A model generated the notes under the pieces. That model was not told where the DNA came from. It ran no database searches and worked only from the letters and a program-made list of their open reading frames with translations. A DNA stretch of 64,000 nt from a virus (taxonomy: Duplodnaviria; Caudoviricetes). Location: IMG/VR virus record IMGVR_UViG_3300029705_000041; one strand, 5' to 3'. How positions within the stretch are numbered: the stretch's first letter is position 1; each line of letters opens with the position of its first letter. Below, piece after piece: positions 4,814 through 38,408 of this stretch. Made by a program: the position numbers and the translations under genes.

Positions 4814-5269
4814 GTGATTAATATGGCAAGAAGAATTGATGGAACAATTTATATGATTAAGTATCTTAATAGCATGGTGCCTGAATATGTTGAATGTGAA
4901 AATGAAATAGATTTATTTGAATATATAGCGGAAAAACAGATTGCAGGAAATTTGTTTTGTAGCGCTAATGAAATTTGTAAGGATGGTAGTAGACCTAAAG
5001 TTTCTGTTTTAACCAACAAAACATATAAAAATATTTTAAAAGCATTCAAGAATCCGCCGGAAATTATTGTAGAAGAAAATTATTGGCATAATGATAGAGG
5101 CTATCATTACTCATTGACTCCGATAAATGAGAAGGATAGAGAAATTTTATCACAGTTCTGGATAGATACTACATCATTAAAGCGTGCAAGAGAATCAGCG
5201 GAAAAATGGATAAAACGGCATAACCATTTAAAAATTGTTATCAAAAATGAAAAGAGGAAATTAAAATGA
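4814..5269 (+). CDS. hypothetical protein
   Basis: 151-aa ORF overlapping neighbours in operon fashion. Confidence 0.6.
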   Translation: MINMARRIDGTIYMIKYLNSMVPEYVECENEIDLFEYIAEKQIAGNLFCSANEICKDGSRPKVSVLTNKTYKNILKAFKNPPEIIVEENYWHNDRGYHYSLTPINEKDREILSQFWIDTTSLKRARESAEKWIKRHNHLKIVIKNEKRKLK

Positions 5270-32398: not shown

Positions 32399-32440
32399 TT
32401 CAGAAAAAGTATTGACAAATAAAATAAAGCGTGATATAAT
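32392..32440 (+). promoter_or_regulatory. repeated-family promoter for RNA cluster
   Basis: TTGACA(32412)-17bp-TATAAT(32435). Confidence 0.85.
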
Positions 32441-33048: not shown

Positions 33049-33125
33049 GGGAGAGTAACGATAATTGGAAATCGCCTGGTCTCCAAAACCATGGTACGTA
33101 GGTTCGATTCCTACTTCTCCCGCCA
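33049..33125 (+). tRNA. tRNA-Trp(CCA)
   Basis: loop CT-CCA-AA, T arm GTAGG-TTCGATT-CCTAC, CCA end. Confidence 0.88.
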
Positions 33126-33128
33126 TAT

Positions 33129-33223
33129 GGAGTTATAATCCTAATTGGTAAGGAAATTGTTTGCTAAACAATTAGTAATCGGTGAAAATCGGTGTTTCGG
33201 TTCGAGTCCGAATAACTCCGCCA
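33129..33223 (+). tRNA. tRNA-Ser(GCT)
   Basis: loop TT-GCT-AA, long variable arm, CCA end. Confidence 0.9.
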
Positions 33224-33226
33224 TAT

Positions 33227-33302
33227 GCACCAGTAGTTCAAAGGATAGAATGACCGGCTACGAACTGGTTGGTTGTAGGTTCGATTCCTACCTGGTGTGC
33301 CA
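33227..33302 (+). tRNA. tRNA-Arg(ACG)
   Basis: loop CT-ACG-AA, CCA end. Confidence 0.9.
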
Positions 33303-33573
33303 TAGCTTATTAGGCTAGAATGCATCATCCTTCTATTAAAATTATAATGGGTATAAAAGTAAGATGCAAAAATTCCCTAAAGTAAGCTAAAAAATTAAAA
33401 GGTGGCTAATTATAATCATCCTTCTATTTTAAGAGGTTCAATCCCTCTCTCTGAATTGGTTATTTATTAGATTATATAATATCCACCAATCTTATTTAGG
33501 CTATGTGGCAGCTTCCTTCTATAAAAAACATACATGAAGAATATTAAAAGATAAGTTGCCACAATTTCCAAAA
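33303..33573 (+). ncRNA. ATCCTTCTA-scaffold RNA units 1-3 (33303-33389, 33401-33487, 33495-33573)
   Basis: each: outer stem-GGCTA-inner stem-(A/T)TCCTTCTA-cargo-inner stem'-AAT(A/T)T-CC-outer stem'; inner stems TGCATC/GATGCA, TATAATC/GATTATA, TGTGGCAGC/GTTGCCACA. Confidence 0.75.
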
Positions 33574-33595
33574 CAAAGAAAAGGAGTATAAAGAA

Positions 33596-35818
33596 ATGTT
33601 TGAAGTAAATGAAATTTTGCTAAGAAGAAAGAATAAGGTAATTCTTGCTGAAGGTAATCGGGATTATGTAACAACCAAGACAGAAAAAGCAATGGTTGTA
33701 TCTATTGCAAAGAATATCGAGGCATATGGTTTTACTTTTTCGCCCGAAGTTTTAAACATTTTACTTACATTCACAAGAGATGAAATCGAAGCGTTTTATA
33801 AGGAATTAATTCCTAAGTTGAAAAAACTTGTTGGAGCAGATAAAGAGTATTATCCTATGTACCCTAATTTTCCGCAGCAAGTAATGGAAGCATCGGACAT
33901 TGAATTGTTCGTAAATGCAATACTTCATTATTTTACATTTGGTCAGTGGATGCCGGAGTATGAAAAAGATGAACGTTTACCACTGTTTGATAGTAATAAA
34001 ATGACTGTTTTATCTGTAGGAAATGCCTCTGATGTTATGGATATTCTTAGTAATTTGGTAAGCAGTAAAACATCGTTATCAGAACAGGACAAATGTGATG
34101 TTGAAACAATTATCAAAACATATCCTGAATATCACAAATATCTTCCGGATGAAATTCCTCTGAAGGAAAATGTAGCTTTAATAGGAAAGATAATTCTTGA
34201 AGAAGCTCCTATAAAGAAAGCAAGCTATATTCAAAAATATTATAAAACAGCAACAGATGTATTAAGACTTGTTACTTGTTTATCAGATGGAGATATAAGT
34301 TTGGCAACAAGAACAAAGTACAGAAGTTTAAAACGTGCTGAACGAAGAATGATAATGGATTTACTTGCTGGATGTGGTAACATTATCGAAGATTTATTTA
34401 GATACCATTATCAGTGGATTCGTGTCGGAGAAATCATTCATCCTTTTGAATATAAAGCTGCTAAATATAATAGCGTTAATGATGCATTTAAAATTCTTAG
34501 AGAAGATAATAAACCTTTGATGTTTGGTGGAAAGGTGCAAGCTGCAATTTTAGCAAAAGATATGAAAACAGCAGCAACCCTACTTAAAGAACGTCCAGGT
34601 GAATTTGCAAGACAGCTTGATAAAGTTATGAGAGATGCATCGGATAAGAATTATATTTTGAATTGCTTTAAAGCTGTAGCAAATGACATTTCTACTCCGG
34701 TTCTTCTTCAAGTAAGACAACATTTCCAGGGAAGAAATAATCAGAATCCAATCAGAGTATTTTTCCCAAAAGGAAATTTGGCAAGAGCAATAGTTATTCC
34801 AAATGAACTGGTTGAGATTGAAGATAGATATTGTAAGTCAATTGTACAAATCTGTGAAAATGCTCTTTTAGAAAATTATAAGAGTAAGGATTACATGGGT
34901 AAAGTATATATTGACAGTGAATTGAAAAATTATATTGTTCCATTCAATCAGAGAAGTGCAAGTAGTGCAAATAAAATCATAATCAGAGGTAGCCAGGTTC
35001 CTATTAAAGAGGACGCAACCGCTGTAAGAGGATTTATTTGGTGGACAAATATGGATAGCCATAGCTACGGTAGTAGAGTTGATATAGATTTATCTGCTGC
35101 AATTTATGATGAGAATTGGAATTATGTAAGTCATGTTTCTTATACAAATTTGAGAGATAAGAACTTACAAGCATTTCATTCCGGAGATATTACTGATGGT
35201 GGAAATGCTAATGGTAAAGGTGTTGCGGAATTTCTTGATGTAAATATAGATGCCGTAGCGAAAAGAGGAAGATATATTGTATATCAGGTTTATAGCTTTA
35301 CAGGGCAGAAGTTTTCTGATATGCCAAATTGTAGATTTGGTTGGATGGAACGTGAAGATGTTGCATCTGGAGAAATTTTTGAACCAAAAACTGTTGCTAT
35401 GAGTCTTGATGTTACTTCTGAAAGTACCGTGGCAATACCGGTAATATTCGATTGTAAAGAACGTAAGTTCATTTGGTGTGATATGAACCTTGGCATTAAT
35501 GATACAAGTAGAAGATGCAGAGGAAATAACCTGGAAAGTAATTTATCAGGTGTAACTGCAACTTGTTATGCTATGACACATTTAAACAAAGCAAATATTT
35601 ATGATTTGGTTAGATTAAATGTAGAAGCAAGAGGTTTAATTACAACCAATAGAAATGAGGCTGATATTATTTTTAGTAATGATACAACTATACCTGTAGA
35701 GGTAGTAGAAGTTGAAGATGAAATTACAAAAGAAAAGAAATTCGTTCAGCGTGAAAGAAATAATGTTCCGATTATAACTGCATATGATGCAGATTATTAT
35801 ATGGGACAGTTGCTATAA
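33596..35818 (+). CDS. 740-aa protein, long helical N-terminal region plus C-terminal TerD-like domain (possible Ro60/TROVE-like RNA-binding protein)
   Basis: VDIDLSA..YD, HSGDITD, AEFLDV TerD-like motifs; YPNFP, RPGEFARQLD; TROVE-like assignment inferred from context only. Confidence 0.6.
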   Translation: MFEVNEILLRRKNKVILAEGNRDYVTTKTEKAMVVSIAKNIEAYGFTFSPEVLNILLTFTRDEIEAFYKELIPKLKKLVGADKEYYPMYPNFPQQVMEASDIELFVNAILHYFTFGQWMPEYEKDERLPLFDSNKMTVLSVGNASDVMDILSNLVSSKTSLSEQDKCDVETIIKTYPEYHKYLPDEIPLKENVALIGKIILEEAPIKKASYIQKYYKTATDVLRLVTCLSDGDISLATRTKYRSLKRAERRMIMDLLAGCGNIIEDLFRYHYQWIRVGEIIHPFEYKAAKYNSVNDAFKILREDNKPLMFGGKVQAAILAKDMKTAATLLKERPGEFARQLDKVMRDASDKNYILNCFKAVANDISTPVLLQVRQHFQGRNNQNPIRVFFPKGNLARAIVIPNELVEIEDRYCKSIVQICENALLENYKSKDYMGKVYIDSELKNYIVPFNQRSASSANKIIIRGSQVPIKEDATAVRGFIWWTNMDSHSYGSRVDIDLSAAIYDENWNYVSHVSYTNLRDKNLQAFHSGDITDGGNANGKGVAEFLDVNIDAVAKRGRYIVYQVYSFTGQKFSDMPNCRFGWMEREDVASGEIFEPKTVAMSLDVTSESTVAIPVIFDCKERKFIWCDMNLGINDTSRRCRGNNLESNLSGVTATCYAMTHLNKANIYDLVRLNVEARGLITTNRNEADIIFSNDTTIPVEVVEVEDEITKEKKFVQRERNNVPIITAYDADYYMGQLL

Positions 35819-35825
35819 AATATAT

Positions 35826-36382
35826 TTCGGCTGGGACTACTCATCCTTCTAAATGCTGCGTAGCATCAAACTTTTAATTTGACCAAGAGTAGAAAATATC
35901 CGAATATTAAAAAAATATAAAAATAATTCAGAAAAAGTATTGACAAATACAAAAAACTATGCTATAATGTAATTACAGTAAAAGTTCGGCTGATAACACT
36001 CATCCTTCTAAGCCTTGAATAAGGAACATACTGCTAATATGATTAAAGAGTGTGAAATATCCGAATATTATAAAACCATAATCGGCTAATAAGTTTCATC
36101 CTTCTACGTATTTTTAATCCTTGTGTTATGGGTTCGAGTCCCATCCATATCGGTGATATGGTAGCTCAACAGGTAGAGCAAAGGCAAGTTGGAAACTTAA
36201 ATATCCGATAAAAATAAAGCAGAAAAAGTATTGAACAAATTTCGGCTGTAGGAATTCATCCTTCTAATATACATAATTCCAGGCTGCAAGTGTAGGTTCG
36301 ACTCCTGCTATCGTGCATATGTGCGATATAGCCAAACGGTAAGGCGGCAGCATATAAAAAAAGAATTCAAAATTTCCGAAAT
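35826..36382 (+). ncRNA. ATCCTTCTA-scaffold RNA units 4-7 (35826-35904, 35985-36065, 36081-36209, 36239-36382); units 6-7 contain circularly permuted tRNA domains
   Basis: TCGG-CT...CATCCTTCTA...AAAT(A/T)TCCGA in all four; co-varying inner stems CTACTC/GAGTAG, ACACTC/GAGTGT, AAGTTTC/GAAACTT, GAATTC/GAATTC. Confidence 0.85.
35919..35968 (+). promoter_or_regulatory. repeated-family promoter inside ncRNA array
   Basis: TTGACA(35940)-17bp-TATAAT(35963). Confidence 0.85.
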
Positions 36383-36394
36383 GAGGTATAACAA

Positions 36395-37156
36395 ATGGCA
36401 AGAAAAATTAAAAACCAGTCAATTAACAAGACAGAAAAAGTATTTATAGAGAAATTTCAATCTTTATGTTATACAAGAAGTTCTTGGGAGGTTTGGGCTG
36501 ATTTTATAACAGCTACAGCTTGTGCAATCGCAAACTCTATTGACAAAGAATCAGAACAGTTTGAAAAAAGAGAAAAAGAATATGCTCAATGCATTGAAAG
36601 ACTTGGAGGTTTGCAAACTCCGGCAGAAATGCTTGGTATAATTACTATGGCTCTTGAAGAAAATCCGGAACAAGATTTCTTAGGTGGTTTATTTATGAAA
36701 CTTGAATTAGGAAATCATTGGAAAGGACAATTCTTTACACCATATTGTGTATGTAAAACCATGGCTGCTATTAATTCTTATGAGCTTGAAGAAACTATAC
36801 AAAATAAAGGCTGGGTTTCAGTAAATGATTGTGCTTGTGGTGCTGGAGCAACTTTGATAGCAATGGCAAACACCTTAAAAGAACATGAAGTTAATTATCA
36901 AAATCACGCCTTATTCGTGGCACAAGATATAGACAGAGTTGCAGGATTGATGTGTTACATTCAGTTGTCATTACTTGGATGTCCAGGATATGTTGTAATA
37001 GCCGATTCACTTACAAATCCGATTGTTGGAAGTGTTTTAAGACCGGCACAAAAAGAGAATCAAGAATTCTGGTTTACACCAATGTATGCATCAGATGTAT
37101 GGCACTACCGTAGATTATACAACATGATGGATTCAATACTATTTGGAAGGAATTAA
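36395..37156 (+). CDS. N6-adenine methyltransferase-family protein (SAM-binding half)
   Basis: GQFFTP, DCACGAG, AQDID; no NPPF/DPPY motif seen. Confidence 0.7.
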   Translation: MARKIKNQSINKTEKVFIEKFQSLCYTRSSWEVWADFITATACAIANSIDKESEQFEKREKEYAQCIERLGGLQTPAEMLGIITMALEENPEQDFLGGLFMKLELGNHWKGQFFTPYCVCKTMAAINSYELEETIQNKGWVSVNDCACGAGATLIAMANTLKEHEVNYQNHALFVAQDIDRVAGLMCYIQLSLLGCPGYVVIADSLTNPIVGSVLRPAQKENQEFWFTPMYASDVWHYRRLYNMMDSILFGRN

Positions 37157-37576: not shown

Positions 37577-37652
37577 ACGGATGTAGCTCAATCGGTAGAG
37601 CAGATGACTTTTAATCATCAGGTAGTGAGTTCGAGTCTCATCATCCGTACCA
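37577..37652 (+). tRNA. tRNA-Lys(TTT)
   Basis: loop CT-TTT-AA, CCA. Confidence 0.9.
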
Positions 37653-37908: not shown

Positions 37909-38400
37909 GAATTGTTGCAGATGCGAATATAGGCGGTACTTAATTCATAGGCATTCAGTGCATATATCGTTAGCACACTCCGTGGGAACTGCTCCTATAG
38001 CTGATGGTTCCTTGCAACATCTACACGAATAAGAAGAAGCAAACTCTCTGCTAATGGTGAAATGATATATCTGTTAGCCGTACTAATACGTATTAGGTAT
38101 TTGTGTAGCGTTATAATCCTACCAACACGTTAGATTGGGGCAAGTATAATAGCGGATTAATATAGATAATGATTTGTAGCATAATGGATTTAGCAATTTA
38201 TTGTATTGGTGGCAAATATTATACATTTGTTGTCGGCTACACGGCGATAATCAATACGATAATGAGCGACAGTTTTTATTACCGGTTAAAGTTTTTGAAT
38301 TTGAGGTGAGGCATAATAATTTTGTGGAGTGGCTATGTAGACCAACTAGCAGTGTCTAAGCATAGAGTAGGATTTGATTGCTTTAGCCGGAATAAAAATT
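37909..38400 (+). ncRNA. large multi-domain structured ncRNA candidate (~490 nt)
   Basis: no + strand ORF of 60 aa or more; successive long-range helices between two tRNAs. Confidence 0.6.
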
Positions 38401-38408
38401 GCTTATAT

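What the first reader, a model, noticed from the sequence alone, without database searches (positions are those of the whole stretch)
35826..36065. Scaffold units presenting isolated anticodon stem-loops
Seen: unit 4 cargo contains TCAAA-CTTTTAA-TTTGA, a 5-bp stem with the canonical tRNA-Lys(UUU) loop, identical to the loop of tRNA-Lys at 37577. Unit 5 contains CATA-CTGCTAA-TATG, a Ser(GCU)-type loop. Unit 2 carries a lone T arm (AGAGG-TTCAATC-CCTCT). Known: tRNA-Lys(UUU) is the target of PrrC and PARIS, and tRNA-Ser of some retron and TA toxins. Inference: these are anticodon-loop decoys for abortive-infection tRNases.
Basis: partly seen in the sequence, partly recalled or inferred. Interest (0 to 1): 0.75.

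Follow-up and report, generated by a model that had tools for sequence, protein, structure and literature searches.

The report
Phage handle RNAs displaying anticodon-arm mimics
Two ~80-nt phage RNAs each carry a look-alike of a tRNA anticodon arm (Lys-UUU, Ser-GCU) on a conserved handle beside a Ro60-shaped TerD protein; related phages keep the mimicry, so it is selected, probably as bait for proteins that read or cut anticodon loops.

Summary
Units 4 (35825-35905) and 5 (35984-36066) are two of seven RNAs flanking a 740-aa gene.

- **Unit architecture:** outer stem P1, internal loop, 7-bp stem P2, a CAUCCUUCUA core kept in almost every unit, then a variable cargo.
- **Cargo here:** a small hairpin stacked on an anticodon-like arm, UCAAA-CUUUUAA-UUUGA in unit 4 and CAUA-CUGCUAA-UAUG in unit 5.
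it passes. Among 149 distinct short cargos from 81 loci, only 7-nt loops are clearly over-represented (39 against 16.6±3.8 in shuffles). YU-NNN-R loops number 25 against 2.7±1.6.
- **Conservation:** CUUUUAA recurs in 20 loci with five covarying stems, and once more in the cultured Xanthomonas jumbo phage XacN1.
- **Other loops seen:** they match Pro, Cys, Thr, Ser, Phe, Tyr and Met tRNA anticodon loops.
- **Partner protein:** a C-terminal TerD fold and an N-terminal ring whose best PDB matches are Ro60. It has no TROVE sequence signal.
- **Relation to Y RNAs:** the handle lacks the Y-RNA GNCGAA motif and is absent from Rfam 15.

My reading is a Y-RNA-like particle whose RNAs display tRNA parts. 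The anticodon-nuclease decoy role is plausible but untested. The scan has noted this RNA-protein pair before in at least 16 other genomes.

The parts
35825..35905 (+). Unit 4 RNA. P1 35826-35830/35900-35904; P2 35836-35842/35887-35892; core CAUCCUUCUA 35842-35851; hairpin 1 35853-35866; Lys(UUU)-type anticodon arm 35866-35882.
   Evidence: Sequence; coordinates; the minimum-energy fold gives P1, P2, hairpin 1 and the anticodon-like hairpin; covariation in 17 homologous units.
35984..36066 (+). Unit 5 RNA. Core 36001-36010; hairpin 1 CCUU-GAAU-AAGG 36013-36024; Ser(GCU)-type anticodon arm CAUA-CUGCUAA-UAUG 36027-36041.
   Evidence: A homologous unit with CAAA-CUGCUAA-UUUG lies at L005 4902-4982.
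35940..35968 (+). Perfect sigma-70 consensus promoter (TTGACA, 17 nt, TATAAT, with a TG extension) between units 4 and 5. It would start transcription a few bases before unit 5.
   Evidence: It lies within a promoter motif found 11 times on the + strand of the window.
33596..35818 (+). Gene for the 740-aa partner protein. The N-terminal helical ring has Ro60 as its best structural match; residues 473-660 are a TerD fold.
   Evidence: AlphaFold2 model pLDDT 89. TerD Z 15.6. Ro60 matches: 9l5y Z 8.8 over 265 aa, 2nvo Z 8.7 over 242 aa, 1yvp Z 6.7 over 286 aa. No Pfam TROVE hit. Handle units flank homologues of 37-69% identity in 69 of 80 loci.
33309..33573 (+). Units 1-3 upstream of the gene (33309-33381, 33400-33488, 33495-33573). 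Unit 2 carries a lone T arm at 33432-33448.
36080..36381 (+). Units 6 and 7 (36080-36210, 36240-36381). Same handle; the cargo is a back-to-front tRNA body (T arm, acceptor stem closed by a short loop, D arm), as in YrlA.
   Evidence: Rfam YrlA RF02553 partial match at 36120-36183, 40.2 bits, E 3e-6, below the gathering score of 69; parse.
37577..37652 (+). Phage tRNA-Lys(UUU). Its anticodon loop CUUUUAA is the one copied in unit 4.
33129..33223 (+). Phage tRNA-Ser(GCU), loop UUGCUAA. It has the same anticodon as unit 5 but differs at position 32.

Best explanation
Units 4 and 5 are small non-coding RNAs of a phage 'handle plus cargo' family built on the plan of Y RNAs.

**The handle.** It consists of P1, an internal loop CUR-NN / AAAUUU, a 7-bp P2 closed by a conserved C-G pair, and a single-stranded AUCCUUCUA. 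It is the likely binding site of the neighbouring 740-aa protein, which has a Ro60-shaped ring and a TerD domain.

**The cargo.** In these two units it is a short hairpin stacked on a 5-bp (unit 5: 4-bp) stem with a 7-nt loop that copies the anticodon loop of tRNA-Lys(UUU) or tRNA-Ser(GCU). The particle therefore displays an isolated anticodon arm.

**Proposed mechanism.** The displayed arm is bait for a protein that recognises that anticodon loop. The most likely target is a host tRNA-cutting defence nuclease. The arm would soak it up, or tether it to the Ro-like protein, while the phage's own tRNAs keep translation going.

**Shown by computation:** the RNA structure, the linkage to the protein gene, and selection on loop size and loop sequence.

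**Inferred:** processing of the units out of tRNA operon transcripts, binding of the handle by the protein, and the identity of whatever binds the anticodon arm.
For: **Structure.** P1, P2 and the anticodon-like stem covary: 92.7% paired against 64% shuffled, and slid controls give 28-48%. In a fixed register, P2 pairs at 0.92-0.99 per position over 84 distinct units.

**Linkage to the protein.** GGCU-N11-UCCUUCU units flank the gene in 69 of 80 loci whose protein is only 37-69% identical. My parser accepts 83% of cores in these loci, against about 8% of chance pattern matches elsewhere. Variant handles sit beside the homologues in the cultured phages XacN1 (26% identity) and Weasels2 (34% identity).

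**Mimicry.** Among hairpin loop lengths of 3-10 nt, 7 nt is the one clearly over-represented (39 against 16.6±3.8, shuffle maximum 28). Those loops are anticodon-type (25 against 2.7) or T-loop-type (4 against 0.05). CUUUUAA occurs in 20 loci with 5 fully complementary stem variants. It occurs again as UUCA-CUUUUAA-UGAA in the first unit upstream of XacN1 ORF396.

**Family frame.** Sister units carry YrlA-like tRNA bodies. Ro60 structures are the two best of 48,161 chains for the N-terminal domain, and the only matches that align more than 240 residues. Bona fide Ro60 structures differ from each other by 5.8-6.5 A rmsd (PMC12135203).

**Context.** The units lie inside phage tRNA operons on the same strand. 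A tRNA-Lys(UUU) gene often ends 1-5 nt before the first unit.

**Plausibility from the literature.** Phage tRNAs counter tRNA-Lys-cutting PARIS (PMC11464382). A phage Ro60/Y-RNA particle has been proposed to hijack host PNPase against defence (PMC12135203).
Against: - There is no expression, binding or cleavage data.
- The Ro60 match is middling for a helical repeat protein (Z below 9), and there is no sequence signal for TROVE.
- The handle lacks the GNCGAA motif through which known Y RNAs bind Ro60 (PMC4201824).
- Only 24 of 66 parsed loci have a strict anticodon-type unit, and most short cargos are something else. Display of anticodon arms is therefore one option of the system, not its essence.
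- PrrC is reported to depend on wobble-base modification (my own knowledge). A mimic would need to be modified, which is unknown.
- I identified no RNA-repair or defence-related gene by Pfam in the flanks I scanned.
- The 17-unit alignment was chosen for having such loops, so U33 and R37 invariance in it is circular. The unbiased counts carry that point.
Confidence: 0.5

Rival explanations
1. Y-RNA-style adaptor with no decoy role. The handle binds the Ro-like protein, and the tRNA-part cargos recruit or gate ordinary tRNA-handling enzymes (modification, processing, PNPase-type decay or repair) for RNA quality control during infection.
For: Known Y RNAs tether Ro60 to effectors, and YrlA is a substrate of tRNA enzymes (PMC4201824). 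The phiLo Ro60 and its Y-like RNAs form a complex with host PNPase (PMC12135203). Sister units carry whole tRNA bodies or lone T arms, which are not nuclease targets in any obvious way. The anticodon identities are mixed: Lys, Ser, Pro, Cys, Thr, Phe, Met.
Against: No single tRNA enzyme reads all these anticodon loops. There is no PNPase or repair gene next to the locus here. The heavy bias to Lys(UUU), in 20 of the 24 loci that have such a unit, fits a specific target better than general quality control.
Confidence: 0.25
2. Relic cargo. The variable region is filler that arose from pieces of neighbouring tRNA genes. The 7-nt U-turn loop is kept because it is a stable, compact cap, not because it imitates a particular tRNA.
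For: The units sit among tRNA genes. Many short cargos have no tRNA-like feature. A-U-rich 5-bp hairpins are common in this genome.
Against: The whole 7-nt loop sequence, not just its size, is held fixed (CUUUUAA in 20 loci and in XacN1) while the stem changes on both sides. The stems differ from those of the phage's own tRNA-Lys, so these are not recent copies. Loop positions 32, 37 and 38 follow the cognate tRNA, for example G37 in the Pro-type UUUGGGA loop.
Confidence: 0.1
3. Pairing riboregulator. The exposed anticodon triplet pairs with a codon-like sequence, for example the specifier codon of host T-box leaders, and so interferes with host aminoacyl-tRNA synthetase regulation.
For: A relative of the protein is named from a Ruminococcus record, which hints at a Firmicutes host. 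T-box control is common in Firmicutes (my own knowledge). The anticodons seen (GGU, GCA, GAA, GCU, GUA) are those that read typical specifier codons (my own knowledge).
Against: These are simply the standard bacterial anticodons for those amino acids. The same Lys-type unit occurs in a Xanthomonas phage, and T-box leaders are rare in that host group (host-group point from my own knowledge). An anticodon arm without the tRNA elbow binds T-box Stem I weakly (my own knowledge).
Confidence: 0.05
4. Parts of working split or permuted tRNAs. The anticodon-arm units and the tRNA-body units are cut and joined to make functional tRNAs.
For: The two cargo classes are complementary halves of a tRNA, and they sit side by side.
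Against: Every unit closes on itself through its own P1 and P2, so nothing guides joining in trans. No bulge-helix-bulge or intron signature is seen, and Rfam gives no tRNA call across these units above threshold. ARAGORN calls none of them. The phages already encode full tRNAs with the same anticodons.
Confidence: 0.03
5. Chance hairpins in A+T-rich intergenic DNA.
For: There are 86 hairpins of the generic kind on the + strand of the window. The folding z-scores of single units are only -1.1 to -1.6.
Against: Enrichment over shuffles, covariation and conservation down to 26% protein identity all argue against it.
Confidence: 0.02

Closest known systems
YrlA/YrlB-type Y RNAs with Ro60 (Rsr) of bacteria and phages (Rfam RF02553; Chen et al. 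2014, PMC4201824; Thermus phage phiLo Ro60-Yrl, PMC12135203, PDB 9l5y)
   Same: - Small RNAs closed by a 5'/3' stem.
- Encoded in tandem next to the gene of a ring-shaped helical protein.
- One module imitates tRNA; units 6 and 7 match the YrlA tRNA-like module.
- Several different RNAs per locus.
- Also found in tRNA-rich phages.
   Different: - The handle has no GNCGAA/CGAA motif. It has GGCU..(A)UCCUUCUA..AAUUUCC instead.
- No match reaches the Rfam gathering score.
- The partner has no TROVE sequence signal, and a TerD fold lies in its C-terminal half where Ro60 has its vWA domain.
- There are 5-9 RNAs per locus rather than 1-2.
- The cargo of units 4 and 5 is an isolated anticodon arm, not a T/D/acceptor body.
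Deinococcus radiodurans Yrn1
   Same: It was modelled with a possible 'anticodon arm' with a 5-bp stem on a Ro-binding RNA (PMC4201824).
   Different: The Yrn1 loop has 6 nt and copies no particular anticodon loop. Here the loops have 7 nt, with U33 and R37, and are identical to specific tRNA loops.
Phage tRNAs that counter tRNA-cutting defences (for example T5 tRNA-Lys against PARIS, PMC11464382)
   Same: A phage-encoded RNA with the tRNA-Lys(UUU) anticodon arm, located in a tRNA cluster, in a possible conflict over tRNA cleavage.
   Different: Those are complete, chargeable tRNAs that replace the cut host tRNA. Units 4 and 5 have no acceptor end, T arm or D arm, and cannot be charged.
Viral tRNA-like structures (plant virus 3' TLS and similar)
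   Same: RNA mimicry of tRNA by a virus.
   Different: Those imitate the acceptor/T half, act in cis on the genome and can be aminoacylated. These are free-standing small RNAs that imitate only the anticodon arm.

Membership tests
YrlA-type Y RNA (Rfam RF02553) | Reaches the Rfam gathering score (69 bits). | tested here: not met
   Units 4 and 5 give no match even at E up to 10. Unit 6 gives 40.2 bits, for the tRNA-like module only (model positions 23-85 of 114).
YrlA-type Y RNA (Rfam RF02553) | GNCGAAN0-1G motif near the 5' end, the proposed Ro60 contact (PMC4201824). | tested here: not met
   The consensus of the 5' side over 84 units is NNNNGGCUR..., with no conserved CGAA. The CGAA in the 3' strand of P1 in the window's units lies at covarying positions and is absent from most homologues.
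YrlA-type Y RNA (Rfam RF02553) | tRNA-like domain with a T arm, a closed acceptor stem and a D arm. | tested here: not met
   It is absent from units 4 and 5, which have hairpin 1 plus an anticodon-like arm only. It is present in sister units 6 and 7.
YrlA-type Y RNA (Rfam RF02553) | Encoded within about 2 kb of a Ro60/Rsr (TROVE) gene on the same strand. | tested here: inconclusive
   The neighbouring protein has no Pfam TROVE hit, alone or across 42 homologues. Ro60 structures are nevertheless the best structural matches of its N-terminal domain (Z 8.8 and 8.7, over 265 and 242 aligned residues).
tRNA anticodon stem-loop (as a structural mimic) | A 5-bp stem closing a 7-nt loop. | tested here: met
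   Unit 4 has 5 bp and a 7-nt loop. Unit 5 has 4 bp plus an A.A and a 7-nt loop. The 7-nt loop is the length class clearly enriched in homologues. The stem covaries.
tRNA anticodon stem-loop (as a structural mimic) | Y32, U33 and a purine at 37, conserved in homologues. | tested here: met
   20 of 24 7-nt-loop hairpins in the close set, and 25 of 39 in the wide set, fit YU-NNN-R, against 1.1 and 2.7 expected. Part of the remainder are T-loop type (4 in the wide set).
tRNA anticodon stem-loop (as a structural mimic) | Loop identical to that of a real tRNA of the same system. | tested here: met
   The unit 4 loop equals the loop of the phage tRNA-Lys at 37608-37614. The unit 5 loop CUGCUAA differs from the phage tRNA-Ser(GCU) loop UUGCUAA only at position 32.
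Functional tRNA gene | Cloverleaf with an acceptor stem, D, T and anticodon arms, detected by tRNA finders. | tested here: not met
   ARAGORN and the Rfam tRNA model call nothing in 35825-36066.
Decoy or sponge of anticodon nucleases (PrrC, RloC, PARIS AriB, VapC-type and others) | Is bound or cut by the nuclease and protects tRNA or the phage. | not testable with these tools
   This needs cleavage and competition assays and phage genetics.

The most novel reading that the evidence does not exclude
A widespread, undescribed phage ribonucleoprotein uses one protein-binding handle to display interchangeable tRNA parts: anticodon arms of chosen tRNAs, T arms, or whole tRNA bodies. The parts would form a bait set against tRNA-targeting immunity. 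The anticodon-arm RNAs would either soak up anticodon nucleases or act as sentinels whose cleavage is sensed by the Ro-like/TerD protein.
Probability: 0.3. Interest if true: 0.9.

Novelty: new variant of a known kind. Interest (0 to 1): 0.72.

Why it matters
Ro60/Y-RNA particles are conserved from bacteria to humans. What the tRNA-like module of bacterial Y RNAs is for remains an open question.

This related system has several properties that make the question testable:
- It is very common. The protein family has 2,974 clusters at 50% identity.
- It splits the tRNA mimic into separate, swappable modules.
- It keeps exact copies of particular anticodon loops.

That points to anticodon-reading proteins as partners. 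It also links the particle to the current picture of phage-host conflict over tRNA cleavage.

The system occurs in cultured phages: Xanthomonas phage XacN1 has a Lys-type unit, and Rhodococcus phage Weasels2 has a variant handle. Binding, cleavage and plating experiments are therefore feasible.

If the bait idea is right, it would be a new class of RNA-based counter-defence. The modular handle could also serve for displaying RNA baits.

Tried and rejected
**Searches that found nothing**
- Rfam at E up to 10 over 35800-36420 gave no family for the handle or for units 4 and 5. I considered known self-cleaving ribozymes and none matched.
- blastn of 33300-36400 against cultured phage genomes gave no match.
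- Sequence searches for TROVE/Ro60 found nothing. These were Pfam on the protein and on 42 homologues, and phmmer/hmmsearch against PDB sequences.
- Foldseek against the PDB found only the TerD domain. Ro60 appeared only with the aligner that compares against every representative chain.
- Five literature searches in the held library found no description of this handle or of a TerD/Ro-like partner. One paper lists highly expressed candidate structured RNAs in gut phages of Blautia and Ruminococcus (PMC10690425). I could not check whether any of them is this family.

**Tools unavailable**
- No whole genome is held for this window.

- My first collection scan used the wrong spacer (N10 instead of N9). 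It returned mostly chance matches. I reused these as a false-positive control for my parser, which accepted about 8% of them.
- The first two versions of the parser mis-set the 3' ends of long units, so I revised it.

**Ideas dropped or left open**
- Conserved neighbours: the methyltransferase-like gene after the array is kept in only 7 of 80 loci.
- RNA-repair neighbours in this window: none identified in the flanking ORFs scanned.
- Pairing between the invariant core and the cargo: RGGA 4-14 nt after the core is enriched (27 against 11.4) but is far from universal.
- Hairpin 1 was left out of the pair count because MAFFT put it in different registers.

Full report
**What is at the coordinates**

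The stretch 35826-36065 holds two complete small-RNA units and a promoter between them.

Unit 4 (35825-35905) has these parts:
- P1: UUCGG (35826-35830) pairs with CCGAA (35900-35904).
- P2: ACUACUC (35836-35842) pairs with GAGUAG (35887-35892).
- Core: CAUCCUUCUA (35842-35851).
- Hairpin 1: AUGCU-GCGU-AGCAU (35853-35866).
- Anticodon-like arm: UCAAA-CUUUUAA-UUUGA (35866-35882), abutting hairpin 1.

Unit 5 (35984-36066) has the same handle. Its hairpin 1 is CCUU-GAAU-AAGG (36013-36024) and its arm is CAUA-CUGCUAA-UAUG (36027-36041).

The CUUUUAA loop is identical to that of the phage tRNA-Lys(UUU) at 37577-37652. ARAGORN and the Rfam tRNA model call neither unit a tRNA.

A perfect sigma-70 consensus promoter lies at 35940-35968, just before unit 5. 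A second one, at 32412-32440, heads the upstream tRNA cluster, units 1-3 and the protein gene.

**Is it more than chance?**

On its own, it is not. The + strand of this A+T-rich window contains 86 hairpins with a 5-bp stem and a YU-NNN-R-N loop. The folding z-scores of the single units are weak, at -1.1 and -1.6.

The case rests on relatives. I fetched 13 loci by close protein similarity and then 80 loci with an alignment query. Their protein identity to the window's protein is 37-69%.

Units of the form GGCU-N11-UCCUUCU flank the protein gene in 69 of the 80 loci. A parser that requires P1 and P2 pairing accepted 278 of 335 such cores there, giving 201 distinct cargos. It accepted about 8% of chance pattern matches elsewhere in IMG/VR.

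The hairpin statistics are as follows.

| Set | Distinct short cargos | 5-bp stem with 7-nt loop | Shuffles | YU-NNN-R loop | Shuffles |
|---|---|---|---|---|---|
| 14 closest loci | 56 | 24 | 6.5±2.3 | 20 | 1.1±1.0 (max 5) |
| All 81 loci | 149 | 39 | 16.6±3.8 (max 28) | 25 | 2.7±1.6 (max 8) |

In the wide set a further 4 of the 7-nt loops are T-loop-like (UUCRA), against 0.05 expected. No other loop length from 3 to 10 nt stands out in the same way.

The loops copy real anticodon loops:
- CUUUUAA (Lys), in 20 loci with five fully complementary stem variants
- CUGCUAA (Ser)
- UUUGGGA (Pro, with G37)
- CUGCAAA (Cys)
- CUGGUAA and UUGGUAA (Thr)
- CUUGAAA (Ser)
- CUGAAAA (Phe)
- CUGUAAA (Tyr)
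- CUCAUAC (Met)

An alignment of 17 such units gives 92.7% paired cells for P1, P2 and the anticodon-like stem. The partner-shuffled value is 64%, and sliding the partner gives 28-48%. The covariation score is 0.759 against 0.197 (0 of 500 shuffles reach it). All five pairs of the anticodon-like stem change on both sides.

I chose these 17 units because they have such loops. The invariance of U33 and R37 in that alignment is therefore circular. The unbiased counts above carry that point.

The window has seven units: three before and four after the ORF at 33596-35818.

The consensus anatomy over 84 distinct units is as follows:
- P1 of 4-5 bp ending in GG/CC. The variable positions pair at 0.94-0.96, against 0.46-0.65 with shuffled partners.
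- An internal loop, CUR-NN on the 5' side and AAAUUU on the 3' side.
- A 7-bp P2, pairing at 0.92-0.99, closed by a conserved C-G.
- A core: A, then UCCUUCU (fixed by my search pattern), then a well-conserved A.
- The cargo.

Units 6 and 7 carry a back-to-front tRNA body. Unit 6 matches the tRNA-like module of the Rfam Y-RNA-like family YrlA (40.2 bits, E 3e-6, below the gathering score of 69). Unit 2 carries a lone T arm.

The handle itself is in no Rfam 15 family. It lacks the GNCGAA motif that marks Ro60-binding Y RNAs (PMC4201824).

**The partner protein**

- The protein family is very large: 2,974 clusters at 50% identity. Pfam has no model for it. Some sources name members 'TerD family protein', one of them from a Ruminococcus record.
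- The AlphaFold2 model is confident: pLDDT 89, pTM 0.86.
- Residues 473-660 are a TerD fold (Z 15.6).
- Folded alone, the N-terminal domain has Ro60 structures as its two best matches among 48,161 chains. These are phage phiLo 9l5y (Z 8.8, 265 residues) and Deinococcus Rsr 2nvo (Z 8.7, 242 residues). Xenopus Ro60 1yvp scores Z 6.7 over 286 residues. Most other matches in the list cover about 100 residues or fewer, and none approaches 240.
- These Z values are not decisive for a helical repeat protein. Genuine Ro60 structures differ from each other by 5.8-6.5 A (PMC12135203). No sequence method sees TROVE.
- I therefore treat 'Ro60-shaped' as likely and 'Ro60 homologue' as open.

**Context**

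The locus sits inside the phage tRNA cluster on the same strand. In many relatives a tRNA-Lys(UUU) gene ends 1-5 nt before the first unit, and successive units are only 5-15 nt apart. This suggests that the units are cut out of tRNA operon transcripts by the tRNA-processing machinery. That step is an inference.

**Reach**

tblastn finds homologues of the protein in cultured phages.

In Xanthomonas jumbo phage XacN1 (26% identity), three units with the UCCUUCUA core lie just upstream of ORF396. The first one displays UUCA-CUUUUAA-UGAA, again the Lys loop.

In Rhodococcus phage Weasels2 (34% identity), four units follow gp266. They have a variant handle (GGMUYAAR..UUACUUC). One of them carries a tRNA body.

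**How it most likely works**

Shown by computation:
- a structured handle under selection;
- tight linkage to one protein family over deep divergence;
- cargos that are tRNA parts;
- selection on the exact anticodon loop sequence while the stems drift.

Inferred:
- the protein binds the handle, as Ro60 binds the Y-RNA stem;
- the cargo points outward and engages a factor that recognises that tRNA part.

For units 4 and 5 that factor must read the anticodon loop. The best-known readers in phage-host conflict are anticodon nucleases, several of which target tRNA-Lys(UUU). PARIS is one (PMC11464382); PrrC and RloC I cite from my own knowledge. The strong bias of the displayed loops to Lys fits this.

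I put 0.5 on 'protein-bound bait for an anticodon-reading factor', with the nuclease decoy as its leading form. I put 0.25 on a Y-RNA-style adaptor for housekeeping tRNA enzymes. Smaller weights go to relic cargo, codon or T-box pairing, split tRNA parts and chance.

**Comparison and novelty**

It works like a Y RNA, but it fails the membership tests for YrlA on the motif, the Rfam score and, for these two units, the tRNA-like domain.

The closest precedent for an anticodon arm on such an RNA is the 6-nt-loop arm modelled in Deinococcus Yrn1 (PMC4201824). Isolated, sequence-exact anticodon arms on a common handle are not described in the papers I could search.

I class it as a new variant of a known kind.

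Earlier notes of this scan describe the same RNA-protein pair on this genome and on at least 16 others, and reach similar readings. I reached mine before reading them, and I tested the shared claims here.

Noticed in passing
window 851-59958, + strand (for example 32402-32420, 35930-35948, 36221-36239): The 19-nt motif AGAAAAAGTATTGACAAAT, which contains a -35 box, occurs 11 times, all on the + strand, against 0.09 expected. It is probably the phage's own early or middle promoter class. The copies at 32402 and 35930 each lie within a perfect TTGACA-17-TATAAT promoter.
   Followed up: partly
L286 (Xanthomonas phage XacN1) 2455-2531, 2674-2766, 2774-2842: Three handle units with the UCCUUCUA core lie upstream of ORF396, the 26%-identical homologue. 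The first unit displays UUCA-CUUUUAA-UGAA. Between the first and second units there is a consensus promoter and an odd tRNA-like sequence (about 2590-2668) that I did not examine.
   Followed up: partly
L285 (Rhodococcus phage Weasels2) 4922-5272: Four units lie downstream of gp266 with a variant handle (GGMUYAAR-N6-UUACUUC ... CGCUCRCC). The third (5078-5202) carries a YrlA-like tRNA body. The record leaves this 390-nt stretch unannotated.
   Followed up: partly
window 33049-33122: The Rfam tRNA model calls a tRNA here (45.6 bits) that ARAGORN does not list.
   Followed up: no
window 37909-38408: About 500 nt between tRNA-Leu(UAA) and tRNA-Pro hold only one short ORF (38201-38359, 52 aa) and give no Rfam match at E up to 1. 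This may be a structured RNA in the tRNA cluster.
   Followed up: no
L012 463-862; L218 1873-2184: ARAGORN calls tmRNA genes inside the tRNA clusters of two related phages, a few kb upstream of the handle-RNA array.
   Followed up: no
cargo start of many units (for example L003 6999-7078, L001 5523-5658): RGGA lies 4-14 nt after UCCUUCU in 27 of 201 distinct units, against 11.4±3.1 expected. In those units the invariant core could pair with the cargo (UCCUU/AAGGA). The motif ACAUAA is also enriched in cargos (16 against 6.2±2.2).
   Followed up: partly
window 36395-37156: A 253-aa protein with a partial N6_Mtase match (PF02384, E 3.8e-9; phrog_5696) follows the array. Within the 3-kb flanks it is conserved in only 7 of 80 related loci.
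   Followed up: partly
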